Origin: Trichosphaerium sp. ATCC 40318
Taxonomy: Eukaryota; Protista; Tubulinea
Direction of reading: 5' to 3'
Length of the DNA: 64,000 nucleotides
NCBI GenBank assembly: GCA_038496445.1
Contig: JALMLS010000548.1
Span: 186,001-250,000 of the forward strand
The notes beneath the pieces were generated by a model. The model was given only the letters and a program-made list of their open reading frames with translations, was not told where the DNA came from and ran no database searches. Below are positions 16,132 through 64,000 of the stretch, in pieces; position 1 is the first letter of the stretch; every line of letters starts with the position of its first letter. Made by a program: the position numbers and the translations under genes.

Positions 16132-18412
16132 TCATACACTATCGATGACAAGTACCCAATCATTCTCAGGATTATCATATGAAGACAATGGAGTAAATTG
16201 AACCAAACCAGTATTTTCTATTTCACCAAGATGTATCACTTTACCGTTTCTTGGATCTATCCAAGAGGTTGTTACTGAACTTGATTTGATAACAGAAAGG
16301 TCAAGTGTAAAAGCAGCTCCTCTAGTGGAATACACAAATGCGAATGATCCGTCACCTGTAAAAATATATTAGATAAAGCGATATCTAAGTAAAATTTTTT
16401 CAAAGCAATAAAGCAATAAAGAAAAAAACAAGAAAACTTTCACGCAAGTAATTAAAACAAACGTTCTTTAATGATATTGACAGTGTGTGTTGTATGTATG
16501 AAACGCAATCATTGACTAATCAAAGCTTGGTGATTGTACATCGAAAGAAAAAAACAGCGACAACTTTATAAAACAAACTCTGTTATTTTTCTGCGCGTAC
16601 TTGCGTATGTTCCAATTGTGATGTCACAGTTTTGTAAATCTCCAGCGTTTGGTACAAGTTTTCTTTCGTGATCTGGAATCAAGAGTGTCCAATCACGTGA
16701 TGTCGCTAGATTTTTCAAATGTTGAAGCTGCGATGAACCTAGTGCACATACTATGGTAAGTAACGTTCAAAACAATAAAATAAACAACAGGGAGAATAAA
16801 AAATTGTACCTGGAAAGGATAAGGCGCGCTTCCAACTAAATCCAGCACTTCTTGCTTTTGTATGTTAGTAAAAACCAGCAAGAAAGAAGCTTAAAGTTTT
16901 GCTTACCTGAACCACCAGAAAAATCCCATATAGCGTTAGCGCCATAAGTATACCCAAAAGCTCCAGCAAAAACCTAAAGTGATAATCACACCATGAACAC
17001 GAAACTGAACTTACGCTCCAATATGCGTTAAGTCTAACACCATTGATCATTGTAGTACCTAACAACACTTGATTAGACACCTGCTATTAATTTAGACTAC
17101 GTACGGCATACCACAGTATGTGTAAATATCCATCTCGTACGCGCCCTCGCCCATAAAAGTAGGCAGAGTTGGTTTCATATTGTAATCTTTGGATATAAGC
17201 GATTCGATCTTATTGTACTGAACCCACCCTGACTACCATCTCTGTTAGGACGACTAACTCCCACGAATTGGTAAGGGTGGTACTTGGATAAGATTAAAAC
17301 TCAGCCAAGCATCTCCATGAAACATCTCTGATGAAGAATGCCCAGAAGAGGGGTGATAAGTCATTAGCAACTTTCTTATAGGTTTCACTTAGTTTTGTCA
17401 TTGTATGCTTTTGTACGCACTTCCACGTGGGATTTGAGGTGTCATTCCATTTTGGTCTAGTTCCACCAACGTATCCCTGAGCTATACCTTCAGCCATCAT
17501 CCGGTAAACATCAACAGAGTCGCCTATCCCGGCGAAACGTCAGGATGATATTTACTAGTTAAAGTCTACCTGTGAGCGGGAAAGGCGTGTCACCGCCAAG
17601 AACGAACACTACGTTTGTTTTGTTTTGTAGTAAATTGCCGATGTACTGTATGTTAAATTAGGTGCTTATTAGTAGTGTCAAGTATTGGTGTACCTTGCCA
17701 TATATGTATGCATTTGACGGATTAAAGATTACTTGGCTACCATACACAAAGATGCTTCCCCATTGCGGCCTTTCTTTTGTTAGTAAAGGTATAGCTTTGT
17801 AGACAATTATACCATAGTGCTATGTAAAGATTCATTGATGCTGCTTGATCTATAACACTTGACACCTGTGTTGACATTATCAAAAACTATATTTCGGAGA
17901 GCAGTGTACATAGTTAAAAAACTTAGGATTCGGCTTTGTAGGATCCCTATGCTTCTCATCAGTGAAAGCCCAGTCTCCATTAGCGTTGGGGCGATCTATT
18001 CCCCCGAAAGAAAGTGCAGTCTATTTGTGTTTTAATACGTGTTCACAAGGAAGCCAAACAGCGAAGCTAGATTTTTTTTTTGAAGAACTTTTCTTGCGAA
18101 AAGGATGGAACTTACCGCTTGTATTACATTAAACCCCTTTCCAACACGATCTTTAAAGTACTGAGATACATCACCGGTCTTTAACGAGTGAAATAAATCC
18201 CAAGCAGTTGCGCCAGCCCAAAAAAACGGTTTATTTCCTTCTTGCGCTAGTATTCTATTCTCGCCTTTTAAACAACTCTACGTAAGCTCGCTTCAACAAA
18301 CAGTTGTGGATTACATGCCTGGACCTGTGCGAGAGTACACTTGTAGGCGTGGTAATTCAGAACTGACAACAGCTACACAAAGTAACACAACAAACCCTAA
18401 ACTAACTTTCAT
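16132..18412 (-). CDS. Secreted GH140/apiosidase-like (DUF4038) hydrolase with C-terminal collagen-binding-like domain
   Basis: Signal [18 protein letters not shown]; [50 protein letters not shown]; C-terminal WIDPRNG...NDWVLVI. Confidence 0.85.
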
Positions 18413-18794: not shown

Positions 18795-21700
18795 ATGGAG
18801 ACCTTTTGGCGTTATTTTATAGACCCTAGATCTCTTACTGATATACAGTATTGTGCTAAAGAGGATAAAATCTACATTCTAAGCAATTACACCAAAAATG
18901 TAGACAGCGAACGTGATGAGAAAAATAATACGCCCCTGATGACCGCGTGCGCGTAAGTAACGCATACACAGTATTAACAGCAATATTTCTTAACGTACAA
19001 AACTTCAGAAATACTAGTTTAGCTTTTGTGACGGCTATACTCGATATGGGAGCATCAGCGTCATTGAAAAACAGCCACGGATCAACTCCACTTCATTTGG
19101 CAGCATACAACCCGTAAGTAACTTTTATTTGAAAAACAGCTATTTACTCTTTTCATTTTTGAAAAATGTTGATTTTGACTTTGCGGCGTTTGCTACCAGT
19201 AGCTTTAAGTTTCATCTCCGTCATTCCTATATGATTGAGCTACGTACCAATTGCAAGTATTATGGTTATAAGAGCTATGAAGATAAGCCTTGTGAGGCGA
19301 ACAGCGTTAAAACCGTTTTTTTTGTTCTCAATCTCAGATTTTTATTTAAATCAAAGTGCAATAACAGCATTGTCATTGTACTAATATGTGGATTGATAAC
19401 ATTTTTATTCATTTAGTGGTTCATCACAAGTACAAATTGGCAAGTTACTAATAAAAAATGGAGCACCTATGGAAGCTGTTGACAATAATAATTTCACAGC
19501 ATTACACATGGTACGTGAATAGAATGACTCCATTTTCCTTCTTTTGGGTAATTAGAAATAAAGGCAATAATACAAAGATGCACACGCTTTGCAAAGTGGC
19601 TCATTGAATCTGGAGCTAATATTGAAGCACAGAGTACGTATATCCTTAGTTCTTGACTTTTGAAAAAATGACACATTTTCCACAAAAACTAAGAAAAGCA
19701 CTGAAGTTTTGTTGTTCTGTGCGTTTTATTGTGGCTGCTTCGCACCAAAGGCTCTTTTGTTATCAAATCAATATTCCCTTAGCTTAATGGTGGAGCATCT
19801 GTCTTACACACAGAAGGTTGTGATTTCGATCCTCATAGGGAATATCTTCCTTTTTGTTATTTTCATAGCTAACACTTTACTCAAGATAACCAAGGATACA
19901 CACCACTCATTGTAGCGTGTGCTAACGGTGACACAGAATCAGCTAAACTATTAATTGAGCGAGGTTGTGATGTTACAATACGATCACGTGGAAGCCACGA
20001 AACATCTTTAATTTTTGCAGTTCGGTAATGCTTTACAAATATGTTGCGGTCAACTCATTTAGTGTAGTTCTGGACACCTTGAAATTGTGAAACTCCTACT
20101 TGCCAAAGATTTGTCTTTGCTCCATGTCAGAGACGCAAGAAAACTGCATTTTTTGCTTTGCTAAACTAAGTTAGTCCTCTGGATCATTACCAATACACTT
20201 TACAGCACACCAAGCAGCAAACACTCGTAAGTGATTGCCACTGTTTCAAAACCGCTACATTTTTTTACCTAACAACGTTCTTCCACGTAGAAATCTTGGA
20301 TTTTTTGTTGTCTGTGGGTGCTGATATAAATGCTACTACAAGTGCTAATGAAACTCTACTTCATTTTGCAACTGAAAGAAATGACGAGGCTCACATAAGT
20401 GCTCTCCTAGATCGTAAAATTAATGCCAATAATCGCTCATCTTTCGGTACAACAGGTAAGCTTTATATCGTATTTCCTTTGCTCTTTTGGCTACTCCGCC
20501 AGCTACGGCTTGGTAATAACAACTGTAAATTCCCTTAGCTTAATGGTGGAGCACCTGTCTAACACACAGGAGGTTGTGAGTTCGATCCTCACAGGGAATA
20601 TTTACAATTTTACGTATTGCAACAATTATTCTGGTAAATTTCTAAGAACATTGTTTAGCCCTTCATGAAGCTTGCATCAAGTGTCAGTATAATATTGTCA
20701 AGTTACTCGTAACAAAGGGAAATGCTGACGTCAATAGTAAAGATACAGATGGATTAACACCTCTTCATACTTTAACACATGCGTCAGTGCGTAAAAACCG
20801 CGAAAACTGTTTTGATTCATTGTGGTTTACCTTAGGCAAAGCAAAGCAGTGAAACTGTTATCAATATTGCATCATTTCTTTTAAAGTCTGGTGCTGATGT
20901 AAACTGTTTAAGCAATGACGGGGTACCTGCACTTCGCCATGCTCTTTCGAGAGCACATCGTTTTGACCTTGTCAAATATTTCTGTGAGGTACACTTTGAG
21001 CGTTTTTCTGATCCTCGCAGCCATTATAATCACGTGATTTTATATAAAATAATAATTGTTTACTTGGTTCAGGTTGGAGCAGAAGCTTGTAATGAAGATG
21101 TTTATGGGTGGACAAACCTCCATTTCCTTGTAAACAACAATAAGCCAAAAGAGACAATTGAGTTCTTTAAATCTTACATTTCCAAAACCAATCCTGATTT
21201 CCTTGAAACGTTTGATCCAAAAAAACCTCGGGTAGAACCTAAAGGTACCGCCAATCCTTTCTTTATTAGTATAGACGCTTATTACTTACTTGACATTACA
21301 GAAATTGAAACATTCAATGGACTATCAAAAGAAGAAAGACATGAAGTGCTAGGTGGTAACGTATCAATCGAAGCAATTGCAGAAAAAATTAAGAATAGCT
21401 CGATCAAAAAGATTATTGTTCTCACTGGTACGGACAGCAGAAAGTTTTTGGAAATCTAATATGTAAATTAAAGGTGCTGGTATCAGTACGAACTCTGGAA
21501 TTCCTGATTTTAGGTCTAAAGAGCAAGGACTTTACACAACAAATTATCTGGCTGAGAAACTTAAAGTTTTCAACAAAAACGCCTTCTCACTTCAATCATT
21601 TCAACAAAACCCAGCAGATTTTTATAAAATCGTAAAGACACTATTCTTACCTATTATAAACGGTGAATACAAGTACGAACTAATAATGATGTATCATTAG

Positions 21701-22677
21701 ATAAATGACGTAAAAAACTAACACCAGAATTAGACCAACACCAACACATTTCTTTTTGAAATTGTTGAGTGATAAAGGACTATTACTTCGAAATTATACT
21801 CAGAATATCGATGCACTAGAGTCATTTGCAGGTATACCAAAGGATAAAGTAGTTGAAGTACGTGACAGGGAGTTTTAGAGTGTTTTTGGGTTGTCTGTTT
21901 TATTGACATAACAAGAAACTAGGCACATGGATCATTTGGTTCAGCCTCTTGTTCAGTGTGCGGAAAAGAGTGTCCAAGTTTACGAGAAGTTTGGGACGCT
22001 GTTGAAAGAAATGTACGCTTAAAATACTCGAAGAAAGTCTACAATTGTTACCTCTTATACTCGCTGTAGAGAGTTCCTAAATGTGATGTTTGTGGTGGTT
22101 TTGTTAAACCTAATGTTGTTTTCTTTGGTGAACCACTACAATCTCAGTTCTTTGACAATCAAAAAGTACGACATAAATTTGAAAATCACATTGACAAAAT
22201 GAACTGTACTTTTCTTCTTATTTCTATTTTTAGGAAGATTTCGACACGTGTGATTTGATTATTGTAATGGGAACATCATTGGTCGTTTACCCATTCGCAT
22301 CACTTGTAAACAGGGCACCGAAGACTGTTCCAAGACTTGTACGTTTTGTACTATTAACCCATGTTGCTTTCAAAAAAACGACAGGAATACGATTTTCTGA
22401 CCCTTTTTTTAAGTTGTTCAACAAAGATCCTACAGGTCCATTCAAAAATGCCGCGTGGTTTAATCCAAAAGAAAATAAGTTTGAAAAAGCTGAAAACAAT
22501 ACACTTGGGAATCATAACTACCGTGACGTAGCATCCCTAGGTACTACAATGATAAGGTAATGTAAAATTCTAATGTGAATGATAGGTGATATTGACCAAG
22601 GTGTAATGGCATTAGCACAGCTCCTAGGGTGGGAAAAGGATCTTTTGGCGTTAATGGGCACATTAGAAGAAAAGTAG
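18795..22677 (+). CDS. Ankyrin-repeat sirtuin (class I SIR2, Dictyostelium Sir2B-like architecture); true start may lie upstream
   Basis: Multiple TPLH/TPLI/TALH ankyrin repeats followed by [58 protein letters not shown]. Confidence 0.93.
19773..19844 (+). tRNA. tRNA-Val(TAC), intronic, with T-stem G53>T defect
   Basis: Cloverleaf: acceptor ATTCCCT/AGGGAAT, anticodon stem TCTGT/ACAGA with loop CTTACAC, T-loop TTCGATC, downstream T5. Lies in intron 19634-19885. Confidence 0.85.
20529..20600 (+). tRNA. tRNA-Val(AAC), intronic
   Basis: Cloverleaf: anticodon stem CCTGT/ACAGG with loop CTAACAC, T-arm GTGAG-TTCGATC-CTCAC. Lies in intron 20456-20658. Confidence 0.92.
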
Positions 22678-27456: not shown

Positions 27457-28458
27457 ATGGCAGAATCTTCTGGACAAATTACAATTGATACCAGCAAATT
27501 GGCTGCTATTGATGGTACGCTTGCTGTTATTTCTAAGGTATCGGCTTATCCCTTTTAGAGAGTCGCACACCAGTTGTAAGTACTACAAGGAAGCTTTTCA
27601 GACTATTGTAACCAATTTTAGATCTTGCTTGGTTGTGGGTCGTTCAATCCAATCACCTTCCTTCATTTACGCTTGTTGGGTGCGTTTTTAGCCGATTTAA
27701 TCAATTTATTTAATTGTACGTTTAGAAATGACTAGAGATCACATTATATCGGACGCAAAAGAACTACAAGTGCTGGGAGCGTACATGTCTCCTGTCGGAG
27801 ATGCCTACAAGAAGAAAGGTCTTCAACCGGTTAGTCACCGTATTGCTATGGTAAATCTAGCTATTGAAGACAGTGACTGGATAATGATTGACACTTGTAC
27901 ATTGTTTCAACGCGCGGTTTTGTTTTTACTTATTTTCTCGCCTCAGGGGAAAGCACTCAAACCGAATACATTCCAACTATGAAGCTTATTCGCAAGATAC
28001 AGGAGAGAGTTGAACCACATTTAAAACGTACTCAATAGAAAGCGAAAAAACCGTTTTCTTTACTAACCAATATTTCACTAGGTAAATGCAAAGTGATGCT
28101 TGCGTGTGGCGCTGATTTATTGGATTCCTTCAACGTACCAGACCTATGGAGTAAACAAGACGTACATAGCTCTTATTTTTCTCTTTTGGCCGTTAATTAT
28201 TGTTAGATGCAAGATATTTGTGGAAACGGTATTGTTGTACTTGAGAGACAAGGTACTGACGTGTCATCTGCTATTGAGAAGAATCCTATTCTCAAGAAAA
28301 ACACGGCAACTATTTATCGAGCAACACAAACGTTTCCCAATGATGTTAGTTCCACTCGTATGCGAAAGGCCATAGCTGAAGGAAAATCTGTAAAGTATTT
28401 GACACCTACTCCTGTTGTTGATTACATTGCAAAACATAAACTATACAGTGCTATTTAA
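27457..28458 (+). CDS. NMNAT: Nicotinamide mononucleotide adenylyltransferase
   Basis: CGSFNPITFLHL, SPVGDAYKKKGL, LACGADLLDSF, NDVSSTRMR, SVKYL. Confidence 0.95.
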
Positions 28459-28668: not shown

Positions 28669-31097
28669 ATGGAAACTCCTCCCTACGAGTATTTTAAGAA
28701 GAAAATAGCGAGCGTATTAGATGATATTGCACGTGAGAAGTTATCAAAGCGAATGGACCCGCCAATGTTCTTTGCTACGTCAAAACTACTACTTGGCGAG
28801 CTGGAAAAGCGTAAACTATTAACTCCAGCTGATACAGCTTGGTTGAAAGAAGCAGCTAAAGAAATCGGTTTGAGCGACGTTCTACGCCTGTGTAATGACT
28901 ACATGGAGTTCCTAAACAAACAAGTACTTTGTTTTACAGTTTTAGACACTATATTGCTTATTATATTCCAATTTGCTGTTACAGCACTAGGGATCCAATA
29001 GATTATAACTTAACGCGTTGTAGGTTCAACCACGCGGTAGAATGTTGGCGCGGCATCGCGGTAACTCTGTACATGATTTCGTGTTTACTGTACGCTAATT
29101 CTTCAACTTGCGCAAATCGTCAAGTATTCCATAAAATTATTGTGCTCAAGTTATTGCCTTTTGGCAAAATCATTCTACATAGCTCTCGCTAGTACTTACG
29201 CGTCTTTTTAGCCTGGTGCAAAGGAGCGACCGAAAAAGGTAACTGCCGAACCAAAGGCTTTTCACACACTACGGACATACAAACCTGAGGCTCGCGCGGC
29301 GCGTATTCCAGTTACAGTCGATATACTCACTCCAGTGAGCCACAAGGAACTGAAAAAGAATGAAAAAACTGATCAGAAACGTCCTGTAACTATTCAAGTG
29401 CCACCAATCGCAAAATCACGAACTATGGAACCGGTTGCTTCGCCACGAGAAACGAAACCTACAAACACAGCATTTAAAGAACACGTTTCTCCTCGCGGGA
29501 GCCCAAAGTTATCTCCTCGCGTTTTTCTAGCGGCTTCTCGTAAGGCAAGTACAAGTGGCGGACACGTCAATGGCAGGATTCGTCAGAATTCTCAATCAAG
29601 CGGTGGACAAGCGGACGCTCTTACTTTACCACCTATGTGTACTCGCGATACGAGTAAATCCGCTCCTCAGCGTTTACAAACAACTGCAACAGCGCCTGTT
29701 AGGGTACCTAACCAGCGAGTGGAGACTGTTACAGTATCCGCACAGCCTGCACCTTGGTCGACAGGTCCTGCTAGAAGGGCTTCTTCTCCATTTGCATCGA
29801 GGTACAGACGTAGTGGTGATATGCGAGTACCAGAACCTCGACTTCGAACTGCAAGTAGTCCTCAGAAAGAGTCGTCAGTCTACAAAAATATAATGCTTTC
29901 AAAACAACGTAAAATATCAGCATCAGCTGCTATTGGTAATACAAGCAAGTATGCTCTTGTTATTGGTAATGGTGAGTATTCTTCACCTGTACCGCATGCA
30001 TCTAATGATGCCGAACTTATGGCAGATCAGTTAAGTTTCATGGGGTATTCTTTGATTGGTGGAAAAGCTCAGATAAATGTTGATAAAAATAGCTTAGAAA
30101 AATGTTTGAAGTTATTCAAACAGATTCTTACAACACGTTCAGATAAGAAGATTAATGCTTTTTTTTATTTTTCTGGACATGCTGCACATGTTGATGGATA
30201 TAATTATCTATTTCCTATCGTTGATAATGTTCTTGACGAGAAATCTGTGCCATACAATTGTATAAAAGTAGACAGGTACGTACTAGTTTTTAACACTTTT
30301 TTTTATCTTTTTTTGTTTCAAATTGTTGCTTATGGAGTTTAGTGTTCTATCTTGTATGGCTCAACCTAATGTTGATTTACGATGTGTTATGCTTGATTGT
30401 TGTCATAAGAATCTTTTAGCAGAAGGTAGACGATATGGTATCGGTAATCAAAGCATACAGGCAAGTACTACAGCCTTCTTTCTTTATTTCATAAAAACAT
30501 CGTACATACTTGTGTTTCGGTACTAATATTATGCATAAATAGAGTGATATCCCAACATGCATTGTTCTATCTGCTGGTGTAGCCATGCCCTCTTTAGACA
30601 AGTACGAAAATGAACTTTGCTTCTGCAAATTCTCAAAAAATTCTTATTTTTCATTTCTTTGTTGTTTTTTTCCTCATGTCTCATACTTTGTAATAGACCT
30701 AGTGATGATACGTCTATGTGGACAAAACATTTTTTAAGTCAAAGTAGTGATGTAACCAAAAGTTTGGGTAGAGCTTTGCACCGTAAGTTTTTTGGAGCTT
30801 GTTTTTTCTTCTTCTGGCGGATATCGTTGTTATTTATTGTTTTTCGTCGTCTATCATATTCTTACAATAATTTTAGTTGCTGCTTCAGCAGTTACGAGGG
30901 AAACAGCACAGGTACGCTTTGATGATCAATTTCTTTTATTTTTCGTTTTTCTTCTCCGCTTGGTTAAAAAATCGTATTAACGACGTTTCGTTTCGTATTT
31001 TGATTGTCTGTTGTAGATTTCTGTTAAACATAAACAAATTCCTGTCATACAATCAAATTTTAATGCATACGGGATATGCCTTTATGAGCAATCATGA
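28669..31097 (+). CDS. DED-like domain + low-complexity linker + peptidase C14 (para/metacaspase-like) domain
   Basis: Exon 28669-28923 splices in frame (phase 0) to 29212. Protease motifs YALVIGNGEY, NDAELM, FFYFSGHA, NYLFP, MLDCCH. Confidence 0.85.
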
Positions 31098-33964: not shown

Positions 33965-34806
33965 ATGTCTAAGTAAGAACTGTTTACCGAATTTCTACTA
34001 ACCGCAAACCACGTGATAGTGCTAAACAGAGATTTTTGGACTTGCCACCCGAGATTTTGGCGCGTATTTTACGACAAACGACCACAGCACGATTTGCGGC
34101 TTGTCAGACGTGTCACCTACTCTGTTCTATCATTCACGACGTTATTGGGTACCATAAAATTAAGATATCACCTGAACAAACCAAAACAGTCGTAAAACAT
34201 GCTGGTATTCTTAGAAACACATATATCATATTAGATGCTGACTTTAATGATGATCTCATCAAAGAATTCGCTGGTGTTCGCATGATTTACCTACAGGGTA
34301 TTTATATTACAGATGAAGGAGTTAAGGTGTTAGCACTTTCTGGAGTTCAAAGAATTGTACTTAAAAATACTTTTATAACTGATGAAAGTCTAATAGCGCT
34401 TGCTGGTATCTATGAGATAGACCTTTCAAACACTTCAGTAACAGATAAGGGCATCAAAGCGCTAAGAGGTGTCCACACTATATGTCTCTATTGCACAGAT
34501 GTGACAGATGAAGGTGTTAAAGCACTCTCGGGTGTTCATACAATAAATGTCTCTTATACTGCTGTGACAGATGAAGGGATCACTGCACTCAAAGGTGTTC
34601 ACAATATTAATGTATCAGGTACATCAGTGACAGATGAAGGCATACGAGCACTCAGAAGCGTTCATACAATAAATGTTTCACATACTTCTGTGACAGATGA
34701 AGGAATCAAATCACTCACTGGCATTCATACCATCTTCGCATTTAGTGCTTGTGTAACGAGGAAATGTGTTAAAGAACATCCTAGTATTTGTGACTATTTT
34801 CTGTAG
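33965..34806 (+). CDS. F-box + 22-aa leucine-rich-repeat protein
   Basis: Predicted MSK|FLDLPPEILARIL after one short intron; about 7 repeats of L.GVHTIN.S.T.VTDEGIKA (66-bp periodicity). Confidence 0.88.
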
Positions 34807-38358: not shown

Positions 38359-41300
38359 ATGGAGTCTGCTACCCAAGGTAACTATACATCGTTTAAAGCG
38401 ATCAATGCACCATCCTACGCGTAGGGATACTAAAAATATGACTAGCACCTACAATGGACGACATTAATGCATCAATGAAATTTGTAGAAGCACTACGTGG
38501 TTATCCTAACGTTATTTTCGCTAAAGAATGCTGGACAAAGAGGGCTACCCAAGTACTAAAACTGACACATGACTTCTGTTTTTTAATTAGCACATAGCTC
38601 TTTGCTACCACGGCAAAGATTGGTGTAGTTGAGAAAACGAGAAGACGTGATGAAGTAGATCATACTTTATTGTATACTGAGCACGTACCGCTTCGTTCTT
38701 TGTTGCCTCAAGGCATTGTTTTTATACAAGGTGAAAAGAATAGATTGTTCTTTTATTGGTTTGTTTTGTTCACTGTTCGTAGAGAGTAAGACGGCAAAAG
38801 ATATGCAATTAGTTTTGTATGGTATGAAGAAATTTTTTGACAAAGACGCTGACAGTTTTGCTCTTCGAGACTTCGAAGCAGGTGCAGATAATTACTTGCT
38901 ACTATTTTTTAAAGTCTTTTGTATAGGTCAATTCTCGTCTCTTATGGTTACGAAGAGGGTTGATGGTGAGTTGTGCCAAGTCTCTGTATTACCAAATGGA
39001 AGCACTTGGGTTATAGGATCAAAATATCGTAAACTAGCAATGAGAAACACTGATGCAATACATGACTACAAAAAAGATAAAACTTACTTGCCTGCTGTGA
39101 ATATGTCAACAGCCTTTTTTGATTACTTGTCGGAAATAGGTAAAGATAAAACAGAGGTACACACAACAGAGTCTATTCCTTTACAGTGTTTTACCAAGCC
39201 TCTAAACACCTCTAAACAGGAACTGCTCAAGTTTTTGCACTTGACACGACTCACACTTAACTTTGCTTTTGAAACACCTAAACGACAACGTGTGATATTG
39301 ACAAAAAAGAATGCATTAACGCTTGTTGGTTTGTCTGGTATTCACCATACCAATAACATGGTTCATCCTCTAACATGTACTTATTTTAATGTTGATATTA
39401 CACGTGTTGTACCTTTTCCTGATTTTATTTTTTAGGTAAAGGATTTGGTGATTACTTTGGTATGGAGCACGCTATACAAGATGAAAAAGTATATTCACCT
39501 GTACGCTTTTTGCACGTGCTTAAAGAGAACCATCTGACTTTCAAACATCAGGCTGATTTGCAAAGTATATTCGAATCAACAGCTTCTAACTGGGGAACTA
39601 TGGGTGCTGTTATTGTATCACTCGATGGAGATATGGTTCCTTTAAATATGCTACAAGTGCGAAGCCACCATTTTACTATAGACTCACAATTCAACCAAGG
39701 TAAGAAGCAAGTGGTATATCTGGCAACAAATGCTACGAGAAAACCTCATTGCATCAGCAAAGACTGATCCATCCAGCAATGCAGCTAGGAATTTGATTAC
39801 ACTTGATTTATGTAATAACATACACAAACATGAGACGAAGGTAAATATGCTTAAAGAAGAAACTGATACTTTGGTATCTCTTGGAGTCAACTTTGCAAAA
39901 GACATGCTATCTCAAGCTGCAAGCAACAAAGTGTCTCTAGCAAAGCTGAAAGTTCAAGAAACTTTTCCAGAACACTGGAATCGGTTTTTAGAACGTAGGA
40001 GTCTTCCTGGTGATGTATTACTTCTCAGTAAAGAAGTAGAGGTAGCAGATTGGCAAAGCTCTTTTGAAACAAAAGAGTTACCTTTGTTAGTTGTTATTCA
40101 AGGGATACCTGGTATTGGAAAGACATTAGTCGCTAATAAAGTGGTTGCTTTGCTTAAAGAACATGGTATAATATCTATGGCTTCCACTCCAGATGACTAT
40201 GCATTCATGACAGAGGGAGTACGTAATTAGGACGCTCTTTTAAAACTCCATATTCTAACACATTTGTTAGACAAGAAGAACAGCTACTGTCAAGATGATA
40301 AAAGAAACGATTCTGAGGTAGTGCAAATAAAGAACCGATTTTCCTGTTGCTCATTCTTATTCACAAGGAACAAGAAAGCTAAGGTGATAATATTGGCTAG
40401 AAATGTAACTGTAAATATGAAAGGTTCAGCGTATTTAACTTTAGAAAGAGAGCGATTATGCAGGGCACTCTTTATCTCACCCGAAGATCACAATACGCGA
40501 CATTTGGAGTACCTTTATATGGCCATGGTTTCAATGGTACATAGAAAGCACCTAAATGAATCACATCCTACAAGTACGCACTAGTTGACAATGTGAAGTA
40601 GCGCTTTTTCTTCTCTGGCATATCTCGTTATTTTCTTATTTTTATCTAGATACTTACGACTTGCCTTTTGCTGCATCTCTACCTTTCAAATACGCACCTG
40701 TATTTGATACACATCCAGGATCATTTCCTGTAAAATTCTTAACGCCTGAATCTATACACGTGCCACACAAAGAAAAAATGCAACAAGTCTACAAACTTTG
40801 CGAGGTACGTAGTTGGTTAATAAAGTCCAACAAATACTACCACATTTCGACTTATTTTTTTGAAGAATCAAGGATTCCGAGGTGCATCAGCATCACCAAG
40901 TGATATTGAAGATATGCAACTTTTGGATAAAGAAAATATTGCAAAGATTGTTCAGTCTGTTCATAGGCCAGTTGAGGATATCGGTAAAGATATAGTCTCA
41001 ATAATACGTGATAATATAGCATCTGATATACCTCCTACACGTACATAATTATAAGCCTAGCCGTAAACCTTATAGTATCTATAGACTCAGTTTTTGGTTT
41101 GGCTCTAAACTCCAATGCCGCCGATGCACTGCTAAGAGTTTGTGAGGGTGCAGGATTCATTGCACCTAAGGAGAATATAGTATCAATGATACGCGTGTCT
41201 GATTATGAATCATATTTTGAGGATAAGGAGTTGTGGATAAAGGTACAAAGCACAAAACTATTGTTATTTATTTTTCTGTTTTTTCAAGAATGTAAGCAAG

Positions 41301-41608
41301 CTTGGTAGTACTTTCAGAGTATCAGTTACAAGCATCAAATACAACGACACAATGGCGCTTTTCACAGCGTATGTAAATAACAAAGAAGACAGTTCCCTAG
41401 AAGATGACAAAGTGCATTTTACAATAAGTCAGCCAGGTGAGTTTTAGATAAGTTATTTTTCATCGAAGCTAATCTACATGTTTTTTTTATTCAAGGTGTC
41501 AATTTACAAGCCATAAAAGCAGAGCTATACAAAGAAAAGGGTACTGTCAATGACCACAAAGTCGAGTTATCGTTTGAAAGCACATTGCGATTGTTTTTAG
41601 ACGAGTAA
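38359..41608 (+). CDS. Trl1/Rnl1-like RNA ligase - polynucleotide kinase - 2H phosphodiesterase protein, degenerate
   Basis: YGMKKFF, VTKRVDGE, WVIGSK, GIPGIGKT, TPDD, VIILARN, HR...HPT, VHFTISQPGV in the Trl1 order. Confidence 0.7.
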
Positions 41609-42796: not shown

Positions 42797-43699
42797 TTAC
42801 TTGTAGTAAGTTTCAAGTTTACTAAGACCCATCAAAAATAAACTCCCATAAATGGATCTAAACATAGCCACACTAGCTCCAGTAAACAAAGCAGCAGGTC
42901 CCTCCTTTTGAATAATACTACCAAATAGTTTTACAGCACTTGGGTGGCCTATCTTTTCATCCACAGACATTCTCATACGTGTAGCAACAGTTGAGAATGG
43001 ATAAACCAATAGAGAAGCAGATAGTGACACGCCATAGCCACAAAGAAAATTGATTGTAACATTGTCTTGTACAAAAGGATGGACAGAGTCGTATAATCCA
43101 AAGTACAGTCCTCTTTGTATCACAATACCAACACTTGCAGCCAAAAAACCTCTGTGTAGCCCAACAATACCATTTGCTCTGTAAACCTTCTTGTACACAT
43201 CCAACATCCCACTGTATTTACGCTTAGATCCCTTTGAAGCCAATACATCTCCATATATCTTTATTTTTACTACATCAAGTGACACCAATGGTAGCATGCA
43301 TAAACCAGAAAGACCACCAGTCACCAAATTAGCCAAAACGAAGACGGGGTAGCCATACTGTTGTTGCATCGAATATGCACCTTTCATTGTTGATTTAAAG
43401 ATAGGCCTCAGCACAACAGCAGAGGCTAGTTGCAAGGACTTTGATAGAGGTACAGTTATTGCACTCACAGAGTAACCTCTCCAAAACTGTAGTAGTCCTT
43501 CATTGCGATAAACACTCTGGGTGCAATCAATTATACCCTTGTATGGTACTTTTAAGCGACTTGATTCGAGTAGCAAAGTATTACATTGCAATAATGCTTG
43601 TACACGTGACATAGGCGACGTTGTTGCCTTCAATGCAAGTCCAGTAATTATAGGGGTTACTACGTCTTTGAACCCACGTGATCTTCTGCTATGTGCCAT
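42797..43699 (-). CDS. Mitochondrial carrier, divergent ADP/ATP translocase-like, intronless
   Basis: 300-aa single ORF; YKGIIDC...EGLLQFWRG, ANLVTGG, RKYSGMLDVYKK, VGIVIQRGLYFGLYDS. Confidence 0.9.
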   Translation of the reverse strand: MAHSRRSRGFKDVVTPIITGLALKATTSPMSRVQALLQCNTLLLESSRLKVPYKGIIDCTQSVYRNEGLLQFWRGYSVSAITVPLSKSLQLASAVVLRPIFKSTMKGAYSMQQQYGYPVFVLANLVTGGLSGLCMLPLVSLDVVKIKIYGDVLASKGSKRKYSGMLDVYKKVYRANGIVGLHRGFLAASVGIVIQRGLYFGLYDSVHPFVQDNVTINFLCGYGVSLSASLLVYPFSTVATRMRMSVDEKIGHPSAVKLFGSIIQKEGPAALFTGASVAMFRSIYGSLFLMGLSKLETYYK

Positions 43700-43842
43700 T
43701 GTCGCAACAGTAAACGATGAGTGTGGTTGTAAACAAGCTTCACTGTGAGTTCAGGCGAGAATTGGTTTGACAAATAACCTGCGCTGACTTGAAGGTTTTT
43801 TTTGTTTTTGCCTTCCATATTTTTAACAAATAATGTACATTG

Positions 43843-61197: not shown

Positions 61198-64000
61198 ATG
61201 GTTTACATAATTAACGGCAAAGTAATGCCAGGGAAGCCTACTGAGCCTAGTATGTCACTTGTTTGCTTATAGAACTCACAATCCATCTAGAACAGTTCAA
61301 CGATAACAAAACCACATTCAGTGGCGCGATTGGGCCAAAACCAGGCAATTTGCCGGCAGTACTTGATCGTTATGCGCTTTGTGTGGCCTATGCATGTCCT
61401 TTCGCCAGTAGAGTGCTCGCTACTATGAAACTAAAAAAGCTTGACGTACGTTTGCTAAAATGCGCTCGTACGCCTATTTCCCCTTCCTCATACATTTACC
61501 TAGCATGTATTTGACGTATGGTACATGAAACCGAACAAGAACAATGACGTTGGTTGGGAGTTTGCAGAGGAGACCAACGGATTTAATTTCTTACATCAAG
61601 TATACACCGCATCTGATAGCGCATGTACAACAAAAGTTAGCGTCCCTGTGCTTTGGGTACGAAACGGTTTTCTGGTTTTTTTTTTTTTCGTAAAGCAACG
61701 TAGCGGTTTGCGAACGCAATAGTTACTTCAGCCTCATCGTGTGACGGAAATACTGACACATGTGGAAGGATAAAAAAACTCAAAAAATAGTTAACAATGA
61801 GAGCGCTGAGATTTCTCGTATGCTTAACAACGAGTTTAACGCATTTACAGATGCTACGATAGATCTATACCCTAAAGTAAGTAGAAATTTGGGTGTTTTT
61901 ATTGTAACTTTCTTTTGTACTTATACTTGGTGCCAAAGGATCTGGCTACATCCATTGACGAGCTTAACAGTGAGATAGGGAACCACGTCAACAACGGAGG
62001 TACCATCCATAAAACACTCGTATATACTAACACTCAACCTCCTTTATAGTTTACAAAGTAGTACTGTCACCTACGCAAGACATCTACGAGGTATGCACCA
62101 ACGTCATTTTGCAGACACCTTTTGCTATTTTGAGCCTTACACTAATTTTGGCAAAAAAAAGACTCATTGTAAAGCTGTGTTCAAATGTTTGGATGGTCTC
62201 GAAGAGCGCTTGTCCAAGCAACGATACCTGGTCAGTAACACCCATGTTACAGAATCTGATGTACGATTTTATCTATTACAATATCCTGTGAATGACAGTA
62301 CCCCTTAGATTCGCCTATTTGTTTCACTAGTGAGATTTGATGCCGCATACTATCCTATTTTCAAATGTAACATAAAGAGAATCAGCGATTACCCAAATCT
62401 CTCCAACTTTGTTAGGGACATTTACCAAGTACGTCCACACTGACTTTGTTCACGTAAGTATTCACACATTTCTTAAGATTCCAGGCATATCAGACACTGT
62501 AAACATAAGAGAAATTGTAATTGCTTACACGTGCGTAGTAATTAAGCGTGCTTGCGTACTGACTAACCCTTAGATGCTCTTTCGCTTCCAAACCACGCAT
62601 ACCTATCATTAATGATCCAAAGTTTGATTTTCCTCACGATCGCTTCAAATTTGCCAGTGCAAGTGTGAGTGAAGCACTGAAAACGAAAGGTCAAGAAGAT
62701 GACGCTAAGCAAACAGACAAAGCAAAAGGAGTGGTACAAACTTTGAATTTTGGCGTATGCACGCTTATGTAATTGTTTTAGTTTGTCCGTGGTACTAGCA
62801 AACATCGTGATGTTGTTACTGTAGATGGTTCTTCAGGGTTCAAAGCCGAAAAAGGCAAAGAAAAATGCTGACAAGCTTACTGTAGCTCACAAGGTTTTTT
62901 CGTTAGGTCGATACCACCTCTTGGTTGCAAATAACTGTCCTTGGTCCCACAGAACTATAATAGCACGAAAACTTAAAGGGCTAGAAGATGTTGTAACAAT
63001 GGATATACTTTACTGGAAACGTGATGCGGAACGGTAAACAGAACTACCAAAACCAATAATTATTGATTATTCTTCTCCTTCCTAGCGGTTGGCAGTACAA
63101 TCCAGAAGCTCCAGGCTGTACTAAGAATACCGTAAATGATTTTAAGTACATCACGGAATTCTATGAGAGCGTTGGTAAGTGCAAATTGTACAATAAACAT
63201 TGCACGCGTCTTTACAAGTTTGTAGGATCTAAAGAAAAATCTGTACCTGTACTTTGGGATAGAAAAACAAATACAATTGTTAACAACGAGAGTTCAGAAA
63301 TTATTCGTATCTTTAACTCTGGATTTGGAGATCTCGCTTCTTCAACATATGACTTGTATCCTTCTAACCTAGCGCCACTTGTACGGGTTAAGATTGTTTA
63401 TGCAGTTCTTGAACTAACACCATTCATAGATTGACTACCACAACGCATGGATTTATCCAGGTATGGAATTACTTTTTTTCGCGCTTGAAAACAATTTCAC
63501 TAAGACGGCTAACGTTCTTCCTCTAGAAATCAACAACGGCGCTTACAAGGCGGGTTTTGCAAGTGCTCAAGACGCATACGAAAAAGCATACAACATATTC
63601 TTTAGGGCACTTGACAAGCTCGAGTTAGTATTCGCCACGAACAAATACGTTTGTGGTGACAAAGTTACAGAAGCAGACGTCCGCTTGTTACCAACAATTT
63701 TCCGCTTTGACCACGTGTACGTACCCTTCATTCTTCCTTATACGTCACATAACGTTTACGATTTCGATTAGATACTACACACGCTTTAATCTCAACAAAG
63801 CTATGATTCGTGAGGGATATCTTCATACTTTCAGGTGGTTGAAAGAAATGTATGCGCTAAGTTTTGTTTTTTCACTGTTAATTATTTACGTGTTTGTAGG
63901 CTCGCTTTGCCTGGAGTTTTGGACGCATCCAATTTGGAACATTGCAAGAATGGTTACTTTGGGCGGACAGGAAATAACTTGATACCAGTTGGTCCCGATT
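61198..64000 (+). CDS. Tandem-fused glutathionyl-hydroquinone reductase (Xi/ECM4/YqjG-like GST), 3' end off window
   Basis: Two modules, RYAL...ACPFASR...SVPVLWDKK...NNES and RYHL...NCPWSHR...SVPVLWDRK...NNES, joined without a stop. Confidence 0.9.

What the first reader, a model, noticed from the sequence alone, without database searches (positions are those of the whole stretch)
28669..31097. Death-effector-domain-like prodomain fused to a caspase-family protease: a caspase-8-like architecture in a protist
Seen: exon 28669-28923 encodes PYEYFKKKIASVLDD...TSKLLLGELEKRKLLTPADTAWLKEAAKEIGLSDVLRLCNDY. By eye this aligns with the FADD DED (PFLVLLHSVSSSL...SGLDLFSMLLEQNDLEPGHTELLRELLASLRRHDLLRRVDDF), although the RxDL motif reads LSDV. 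The exon splices in phase 0 (caa|gtac...tttag|cct, 29212) to a ~240-aa basic Ser/Pro-rich linker and a C14 domain with catalytic His (SGHA, 30178) and Cys (LDCCH, 30401). Known: DED-caspases (caspase-8/10) are regarded as animal, MALT1 uses DD+Ig, and the Dictyostelium paracaspase has no death fold. Inference: an independent or ancient death-fold proximity-activated protease, which would imply DED adaptor partners and a protist death or immune signalling system.
Basis: partly seen in the sequence, partly recalled or inferred. Interest (0 to 1): 0.88.

Follow-up and report, generated by a model that had tools for sequence, protein, structure and literature searches.

The report
Death-effector-like domain on a protist paracaspase
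A eukaryote that is probably neither animal nor fungus has a gene for a MALT1-type (paracaspase) protease that likely begins with a death-effector-like domain, a pairing known from animal cell-death enzymes, although the domain match is weak and the splice joining the two parts is predicted, not seen.

Summary
The protease is real: six exons (29212-31097) give a complete paracaspase-type C14 domain with His 30178 and Cys 30401. Its family profile matches MALT1 far better than caspases, and it has acidic S1 residues, so Arg/Lys specificity is predicted, not caspase-8-like Asp. Exon 28669-28923 is coding; its only Pfam hit is DED (19.6 bits, E 0.0011, cut-off 35.9, C-terminal half only) and 6 of 7 weak PDB hits are caspase-8 DEDs. 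Against this, the same half-profile scored as high in 10 of 802 bacterial genomes (mostly MeaB GTPase), no homologue was found, and single-sequence models were too poor to show a fold. No RNA crosses the junction. Fusion is inferred because 29212-29424 is coding, lacks an ATG and needs an upstream exon; an extra in-frame mini-exon (29024-29089) may lie between. The host falls outside sampled animals and fungi; lineage unresolved. Best reading: a single DED-like adaptor drives proximity activation of a paracaspase, about 0.6 likely. My literature searches found no such architecture outside animals. It resembles caspase-8 in layout only.

The parts
28669..28923 (+). Exon 1: 85-aa helical N-terminal domain, DED-like (match covers residues 37-78; RxDL position reads LSDV)
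   Evidence: Pfam PF01335 19.6 bits, E 0.0011, only hit; 6 of 7 PDB hits at E<=10 are caspase-8 DED constructs, E 0.25-1.3; coding score; a 200-nt contig of RNA-type run X1 matches 28680-28879 with no difference
28924..29211 (+). Intronic interval: one 288-nt intron (model A) or two introns of 100 and 122/143 nt around a mini-exon (model B); rival acceptor 28984 would end the protein after exon 1
   Evidence: Splice candidates and phases; not RNA-verified
29024..29089 (+). Possible in-frame mini-exon (15 or 22 aa; GC 0.50; branch-like CTTAAC before it; donors 29069 or 29090; holds an in-frame ATG at 29042)
   Evidence: coding score +3.4 bits, reached by 31 of 783 non-coding windows: weak
29212..29931 (+). 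240-aa basic, S/T/P-rich, probably disordered linker (5' part of exon 29212-30275); first in-frame ATG only at 29425
   Evidence: Composition and ATG positions; 29212-29427 scores +18.6 bits coding, 0 of 213 non-coding windows reach it
29932..30275 (+). Paracaspase domain, first part: S1 Asp (30007) and catalytic His (30178, SGHA)
   Evidence: Pfam Peptidase_C14 E 4e-9; 95 bacterial stretches related by tblastn, best 35-38% identity
30343..30460 (+). Exon with S1 Asp (30395) and catalytic Cys (30401, LDCCH); followed by a likely GC-AG intron 30461-30542
   Evidence: GC-AG model 123.3 bits against 115.7 for the GT rival
30543..30601 (+). Exon with loop L5; Asp at 30597 lies at, or one column from, the MALT1 Glu500 position
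   Evidence: Alignments
30697..30782 (+). Paracaspase exon (helix matching the family's 'glFtkaL' segment)
30877..30911 (+). Paracaspase exon (acceptor 30876 or 30888; both keep frame)
   Evidence: 123.3 vs 125.6 bits
31017..31097 (+). Last exon and stop; AATAAA 31 nt downstream (31128)

Best explanation
The locus likely encodes one protein of about 565-587 aa in which a probable single death-effector-like domain is joined, by a predicted splice, through a 240-aa basic linker to a complete paracaspase-type protease that is predicted to cut after Arg/Lys and to be switched on when the N-terminal domains cluster. Shown: the exons, the intact His/Cys dyad, the paracaspase family, the acidic S1 residues, the weak DED match. 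Inferred: the splice; the death fold; homotypic DED contact with an unknown adaptor or with itself; dimerisation of the protease without internal cleavage, as in MALT1; a role in stress, defence or death signalling.
For: Protease: 123 bits over positions 3-220 of a 233-position HMM from 74 bacterial relatives; a profile of 43 of these plus the window's p20 part ranks MALT1 first (10 sequences, E 3e-33 to 3e-31), caspases next (1e-12 or worse), no metacaspase among the best 60 of 207; Asp 30007, Asp 30395 and Asp 30597 map to MALT1 Asp365, Asp462, Glu500, the Arg-binding residues (PMC4357240 passages). DED: only Pfam hit of the exon, the only death-fold hit shown among 300 window ORFs, and it lies directly upstream of a caspase fold; both caspase-8 DEDs align in the same register; exon length fits one domain. 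Fusion: 29212-29427 is coding with no ATG until 29425, so it needs an upstream exon; phases fit in three models; no AATAAA within 150 nt of the DED-only stops while 3 of 5 other genes have one within 31 nt; a separate gene from ATG 29042 would leave 40-51 nt after the upstream stop against gaps of 210 and 435 nt beside the gene. Host: HDAC falls outside the animal (85/86) and fungal (98/94) groups; neighbours are spliced in run X1.
Against: DED score is far below the cut-off and covers half the profile; 10 of 802 bacterial genomes give a match of 19.6 bits or more, and MeaB GTPase, which is no death fold, scores 22.3 bits on the same half. PDB hits are not significant (E 0.25 at best) and not independent of Pfam. 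RxDL is lost. No homologue of the exon in four searches, so no conservation test was possible. Two single-sequence models (pLDDT 59, 58; four helices) gave no significant fold match, and no death fold was in the 50 VIA rows. No read or contig crosses the junction, and an acceptor at 28984 would give a 61-nt intron of typical size and a DED-only protein. ATG 28669 has T at -3 where two neighbouring starts and ATG 29042 have A. The protease is very divergent (branch 4.26; His-Ala and Cys-His where most relatives have His-Gly and Cys-Arg), so activity is not certain.
Confidence: 0.58

Rival explanations
1. The protein is fused as modelled, but the N-terminal exon is an unrelated small helical domain whose last three helices resemble a DED by chance; the gene is a divergent type 2 paracaspase with a long private N-terminus.
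For: Half-profile, sub-cut-off match; MeaB, a glycosyltransferase and NarJ give like matches; no structural confirmation; RxDL lost; N-terminal 36 residues unmatched.
Against: Such scores are rare: 10 of 802 genomes, about four unrelated sources; here the hit is the sole one of a pre-named 85-aa exon at the N-terminus of a caspase-fold protein.
Confidence: 0.22
2. Two neighbouring genes: a DED-only protein (86 aa by acceptor 28984, or 110 aa by read-through) and a separate linker-paracaspase gene starting at ATG 29042; or alternative splicing that yields a DED-only form, like short cFLIP, beside the fused form.
For: 61-nt intron with a pyrimidine-rich acceptor fits the 45-122 nt size of 9 of 10 RNA-verified introns; ATG 29042 is in frame and has A at -3.
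Against: Only 40-51 nt would hold a 3' end and a promoter; no AATAAA (weak since 2 of 5 genes lack it); acceptor 29023 with a branch-like site precedes the mini-exon.
Confidence: 0.12
3. A fused DED-like pseudo-protease or weakly active regulator (cFLIP-like): the dyad is kept but the active site has drifted, and the protein works as a scaffold or inhibitor.
For: Long branch; His-Ala found in 6 of 74 relatives and Cys-His in none; loop L5 motif changed.
Against: His, Cys and all three acidic S1 positions are kept, and the domain is whole.
Confidence: 0.08

Closest known systems
Caspase-8/-10 (animal initiator caspases)
   Same: DED-type module N-terminal to a clan CD C14 protease; best sequence hits of exon 1 in the PDB.
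   Different: They have tandem DEDs (PMC4558505) and Asp-specific C14A domains with basic S1 residues; this has one DED-like module, a 240-aa linker and a paracaspase domain.
MALT1 / type 1 paracaspases
   Same: Death-fold N-terminus plus paracaspase domain with acidic S1 pocket; top hit of the family profile.
   Different: MALT1 has DD-Ig-Ig before and Ig after the protease and is confined to cnidarians and bilaterians (PMC5978004); here the module matches DED, no Ig domain is seen, and direct pairwise search of the p20 part found no PDB hit.
Type 2 paracaspases / metacaspase-like proteases of non-animals (e.g. slime mould paracaspase)
   Same: Same protease family, found in non-metazoans.
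   Different: Defined as holding only the paracaspase domain; this one likely carries a DED-like prodomain, and has DxCH, not DxCR.
Bacterial orthocaspases and bDLD3-caspase fusions
   Same: Closest sequences found (35-38% over the p20 part); bacterial death-like domains are fused to caspase-like proteases in conflict systems (PMC8195603).
   Different: bDLD3 resembles the Death domain, not DED; no bDLD or EAD family matched exon 1; this gene is intron-rich and nests in no supported bacterial clade.

Membership tests
Death effector domain (PF01335) | Profile score above Pfam cut-off over the whole domain | tested here: not met
   19.6 bits vs 35.9; profile 38-79 of 82
Death effector domain (PF01335) | Six-helix death fold | tested here: inconclusive
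   Single-sequence models pLDDT 58-59; no significant match
Death effector domain (PF01335) | E/D-RxDL charge triad | tested here: not met
   Position reads LSDV; caspase-8's second DED also lacks RxDL in the alignment, so this is not disqualifying
Death effector domain (PF01335) | Homotypic binding or filament formation through the alpha2/alpha5 hydrophobic patch | not tested
Paracaspase (C14B) | Caspase fold domain closer to MALT1 than to caspases or metacaspases | tested here: met
   Whole domain 123 bits vs relatives' HMM; that family's profile ranks MALT1 first; indirect, through the profile
Paracaspase (C14B) | His-Cys dyad | tested here: met
   30178, 30401
Paracaspase (C14B) | Acidic S1 pocket (MALT1 Asp365, Asp462, Glu500) | tested here: met
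   Asp 30007, Asp 30395 exact; Asp 30597 within one column
Paracaspase (C14B) | DxCR motif | tested here: not met
   DCCH; DxCH is described as the metacaspase form but the motif is called unreliable in PMC5756287
Paracaspase (C14B) | Arg-specific, dimer-activated proteolysis | not testable with these tools
   Needs biochemistry
Caspase-8/-10 (C14A initiator) | Tandem DEDs | tested here: not met
   One 85-aa module; linker has no Pfam hit
Caspase-8/-10 (C14A initiator) | QACxG motif and basic S1 pocket for Asp | tested here: not met
   LDCCH and acidic S1 residues
Type 1 paracaspase (MALT1) | DD plus Ig domains | tested here: not met
   No Death or Ig hit in exon 1 or the linker

The most novel reading that the evidence does not exclude
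A unicellular, non-animal eukaryote carries a true death effector domain fused to an active paracaspase, so DEDs and death-fold proximity activation of caspase-family proteases are older than animals or were built twice, and this lineage has a DED-based signalling platform whose adaptors remain to be found.
Probability: 0.5. Interest if true: 0.82.

Novelty: new variant of a known kind. Interest (0 to 1): 0.62.

Why it matters
[quoted passage not shown] Non-animal paracaspases are defined as protease-only (PMC5978004). A DED-paracaspase in a protist would fill the gap between bacterial death-like systems and animal caspase-8/MALT1 and makes the question testable with one small domain: solve its fold, test self-assembly, and ask whether clustering activates the protease.

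Full report
Question. I tested four things apart: the protease, the DED likeness, the splice that joins them, and the host.

The protease. The ORF 29212-30342 has a Pfam Peptidase_C14 hit at residues 246-338 (E 4e-9). A scan of bacterial and archaeal genomes found 95 related stretches, 77 loci kept, best 35-38% identity. From 83 matching ORFs I kept 74 full-length domains and built an HMM; a six-exon model (29212-30275, 30343-30460, 30543-30601, 30697-30782, 30877-30911, 31017-31097) has no internal stop and scores 123 bits over positions 3-220 of 233. One intron is best read as GC-AG (123.3 against 115.7 bits for the GT rival). A profile of 43 of the bacterial domains plus the window's p20 part ranks MALT1 first (E 3e-33), caspases next (1e-12 or worse), with no metacaspase among the best 60 of 207 hits. 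Through the two alignments, Asp 30007 and Asp 30395 match MALT1 Asp365 and Asp462, and Asp 30597 lies at or one column from Glu500; these three bind the P1 arginine, and MALT1 needs dimerisation but no internal cleavage (PMC4357240, passages). So this is a paracaspase-type enzyme predicted to cut after Arg/Lys, not a caspase. It is divergent: His-Ala occurs in 6 of 74 relatives, Cys-His in none, and its branch is long and unplaced in a tree with 30 bacterial rows.

The N-terminal exon. It is coding (+15.6 bits in frame) and a contig of RNA-type run X1 matches 28680-28879 exactly (that X1 is RNA is the tool's guess, supported by spliced contigs of neighbours). Its only Pfam hit at E<=10 is DED: 19.6 bits, E 0.0011, residues 37-78 on profile 38-79 of 82, cut-off 35.9. 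In the PDB, 6 of 7 sequences at E<=10 are caspase-8 DED constructs (E 0.25-1.3), both DEDs aligning in one register; these are not significant and not independent of Pfam. Controls: of 300 of the window's 303 ORFs of 62 aa or more, only this one shows a death-fold hit at E<=0.1 (best five families shown per ORF). In 802 bacterial genomes the DED profile reached 19.6 bits or more in 10, never the cut-off; five of these are visibly one family, identified as MeaB GTPase, which scores 22.3 bits on the same half of the profile. So the score alone does not prove a DED, but such hits are rare (about four unrelated sources in 802 genomes), and here it falls on a pre-named, domain-sized exon in front of a caspase fold. 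RxDL reads LSDV; caspase-8's second DED also lacks it in the printed alignment, and its role varies (PMC4558505, passages). No homologue was found. Two single-sequence AlphaFold2 models had pLDDT 59 and 58 with four helices and gave no significant match: the fold test is inconclusive. I put a true death fold at about 0.75.

The join. No contig crosses it. Three acceptors compete for donor 28924: 28984 (61-nt intron, stop after one codon), 29023 (100 nt, branch-like CTTAAC, opening an in-frame 45- or 66-nt exon) and 29211 (288 nt). Nine of 10 RNA-verified introns nearby are 45-122 nt and one is 291 nt, so all sizes are possible. A codon-position model trained on 35 coding and 22 non-coding stretches of the window (most coding ones with Pfam support) scores 29212-29427 at +18.6 bits, reached by 0 of 213 non-coding windows; the mini-exon at +3.4, reached by 31 of 783. 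The first in-frame ATG in the long exon is at 29425, so the coding stretch before it needs an upstream exon: exon 1, or the mini-exon's ATG 29042. The latter would leave 40-51 nt for a 3' end and promoter, against 210 and 435 nt on either side of the gene, and no AATAAA follows the DED-only stops whereas 3 of 5 other genes have one within 31 nt. Against: ATG 28669 has T at -3, ATG 29042 has A. Fusion (565, 580 or 587 aa) is about 0.85 likely; a DED-only splice form may coexist.

The host. A class II HDAC in the window has one deacetylase domain, at most 71% identity on its best exon to 120 listed hits, and in a 40-row tree lies on a long branch outside the animal (support 85/86) and fungal (98/94) groups (no named protist was among the rows). 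Cofilin's best PDB hit is actophorin. A non-animal, non-fungal eukaryote is likely; Amoebozoa is only a hint. Intron style and codon use match the neighbours, so contamination is unlikely.

Mechanism. By analogy with caspase-8 and MALT1 (established knowledge), the DED-like module would bind a like domain on an adaptor or itself, the long flexible linker would let the tethered protease domains meet, and dimerisation would order the active site for cleavage after basic residues. Every step here is inferred. No partner was seen in the window, and no genome was available.

What is in print. Type 2 paracaspases of non-animals are described as protease-only and type 1 (DD-Ig) as limited to cnidarians and bilaterians (PMC5978004, passages; PMC5756287, passages). 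DED is said to occur only in initiator caspases among C14 proteins. The Death domain is listed as an animal gain (PMC6792448, passages). Bacteria have Death-like bDLD3 fused to caspase-like domains (PMC8195603, passages). Caspase-like proteins are reported in Reticulomyxa, with no mention of DED or death domain in that text (PMC5982838, passages). PMC3734836, PMC11874512 and PMC12066828 (passages) gave no non-animal DED. Ten searches showed no DED-paracaspase in a protist, but the library lacks most subscription papers (the original paracaspase classification papers and a J Mol Evol survey of death domains are recalled, not seen), and no supplements were read; domain tables there could list such proteins.

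Verdict. Observation partly confirmed. The likely object is a single-DED-like paracaspase, a new variant of the death-fold-plus-C14-protease design, not a caspase-8 orthologue. Joint probability of death fold, fusion and non-animal host is about 0.6. Interest 0.62; about 0.82 if the fold and junction are shown.

Noticed in passing
window 18929-22557 (+): Ankyrin-repeat exons followed by Sir2 exons, apparently one gene; two tRNA-Val genes (19772-19846, 20529-20600) lie among the ankyrin exons on the same strand, perhaps inside introns.
   Followed up: no
window 27457-28458 (+): NMNAT-like gene directly upstream of the finding, spliced in run X1, with a 17-nt micro-exon inside 27515-27621; shows that this organism uses micro-exons.
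   Followed up: partly
window 38659-41600 (+): Large gene with a faint T4 RNA ligase-like part (E 0.068) followed by a P-loop NTPase motif (weak NACHT/AAA hits, E about 0.001); may be a Trl1-like ligase-kinase.
   Followed up: no
window 16135-18277 (-): Intron-bearing gene with apiosidase-like and collagen-binding domains, a pairing I recall from bacteria; possible old gene transfer.
   Followed up: no
window 61251-63999 (+): Two tandem GST genes (GST_N_2, GST_C_2 hits) that look like glutathionyl-hydroquinone reductases (name recalled, not tested).
   Followed up: no
window 33973-34806 (+) and 42797-43750 (-): Intronless F-box/LRR gene and intronless, divergent mitochondrial carrier in an intron-rich genome; possible retrocopies.
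   Followed up: no
L084-L088: The Pfam DED profile gives false half-domain matches (up to 24.5 bits) to the C-terminal helices of MeaB GTPases in Bacteroidota; a caution for weak DED calls.
   Followed up: yes
L092:1138-2169 (-), L098:988-1818 (-): Bacterial ORFs of 344 and 277 aa whose only Pfam hit is a weak DED half-match (E 7e-4, 6e-3); chance or unrecognised death-like domains.
   Followed up: no
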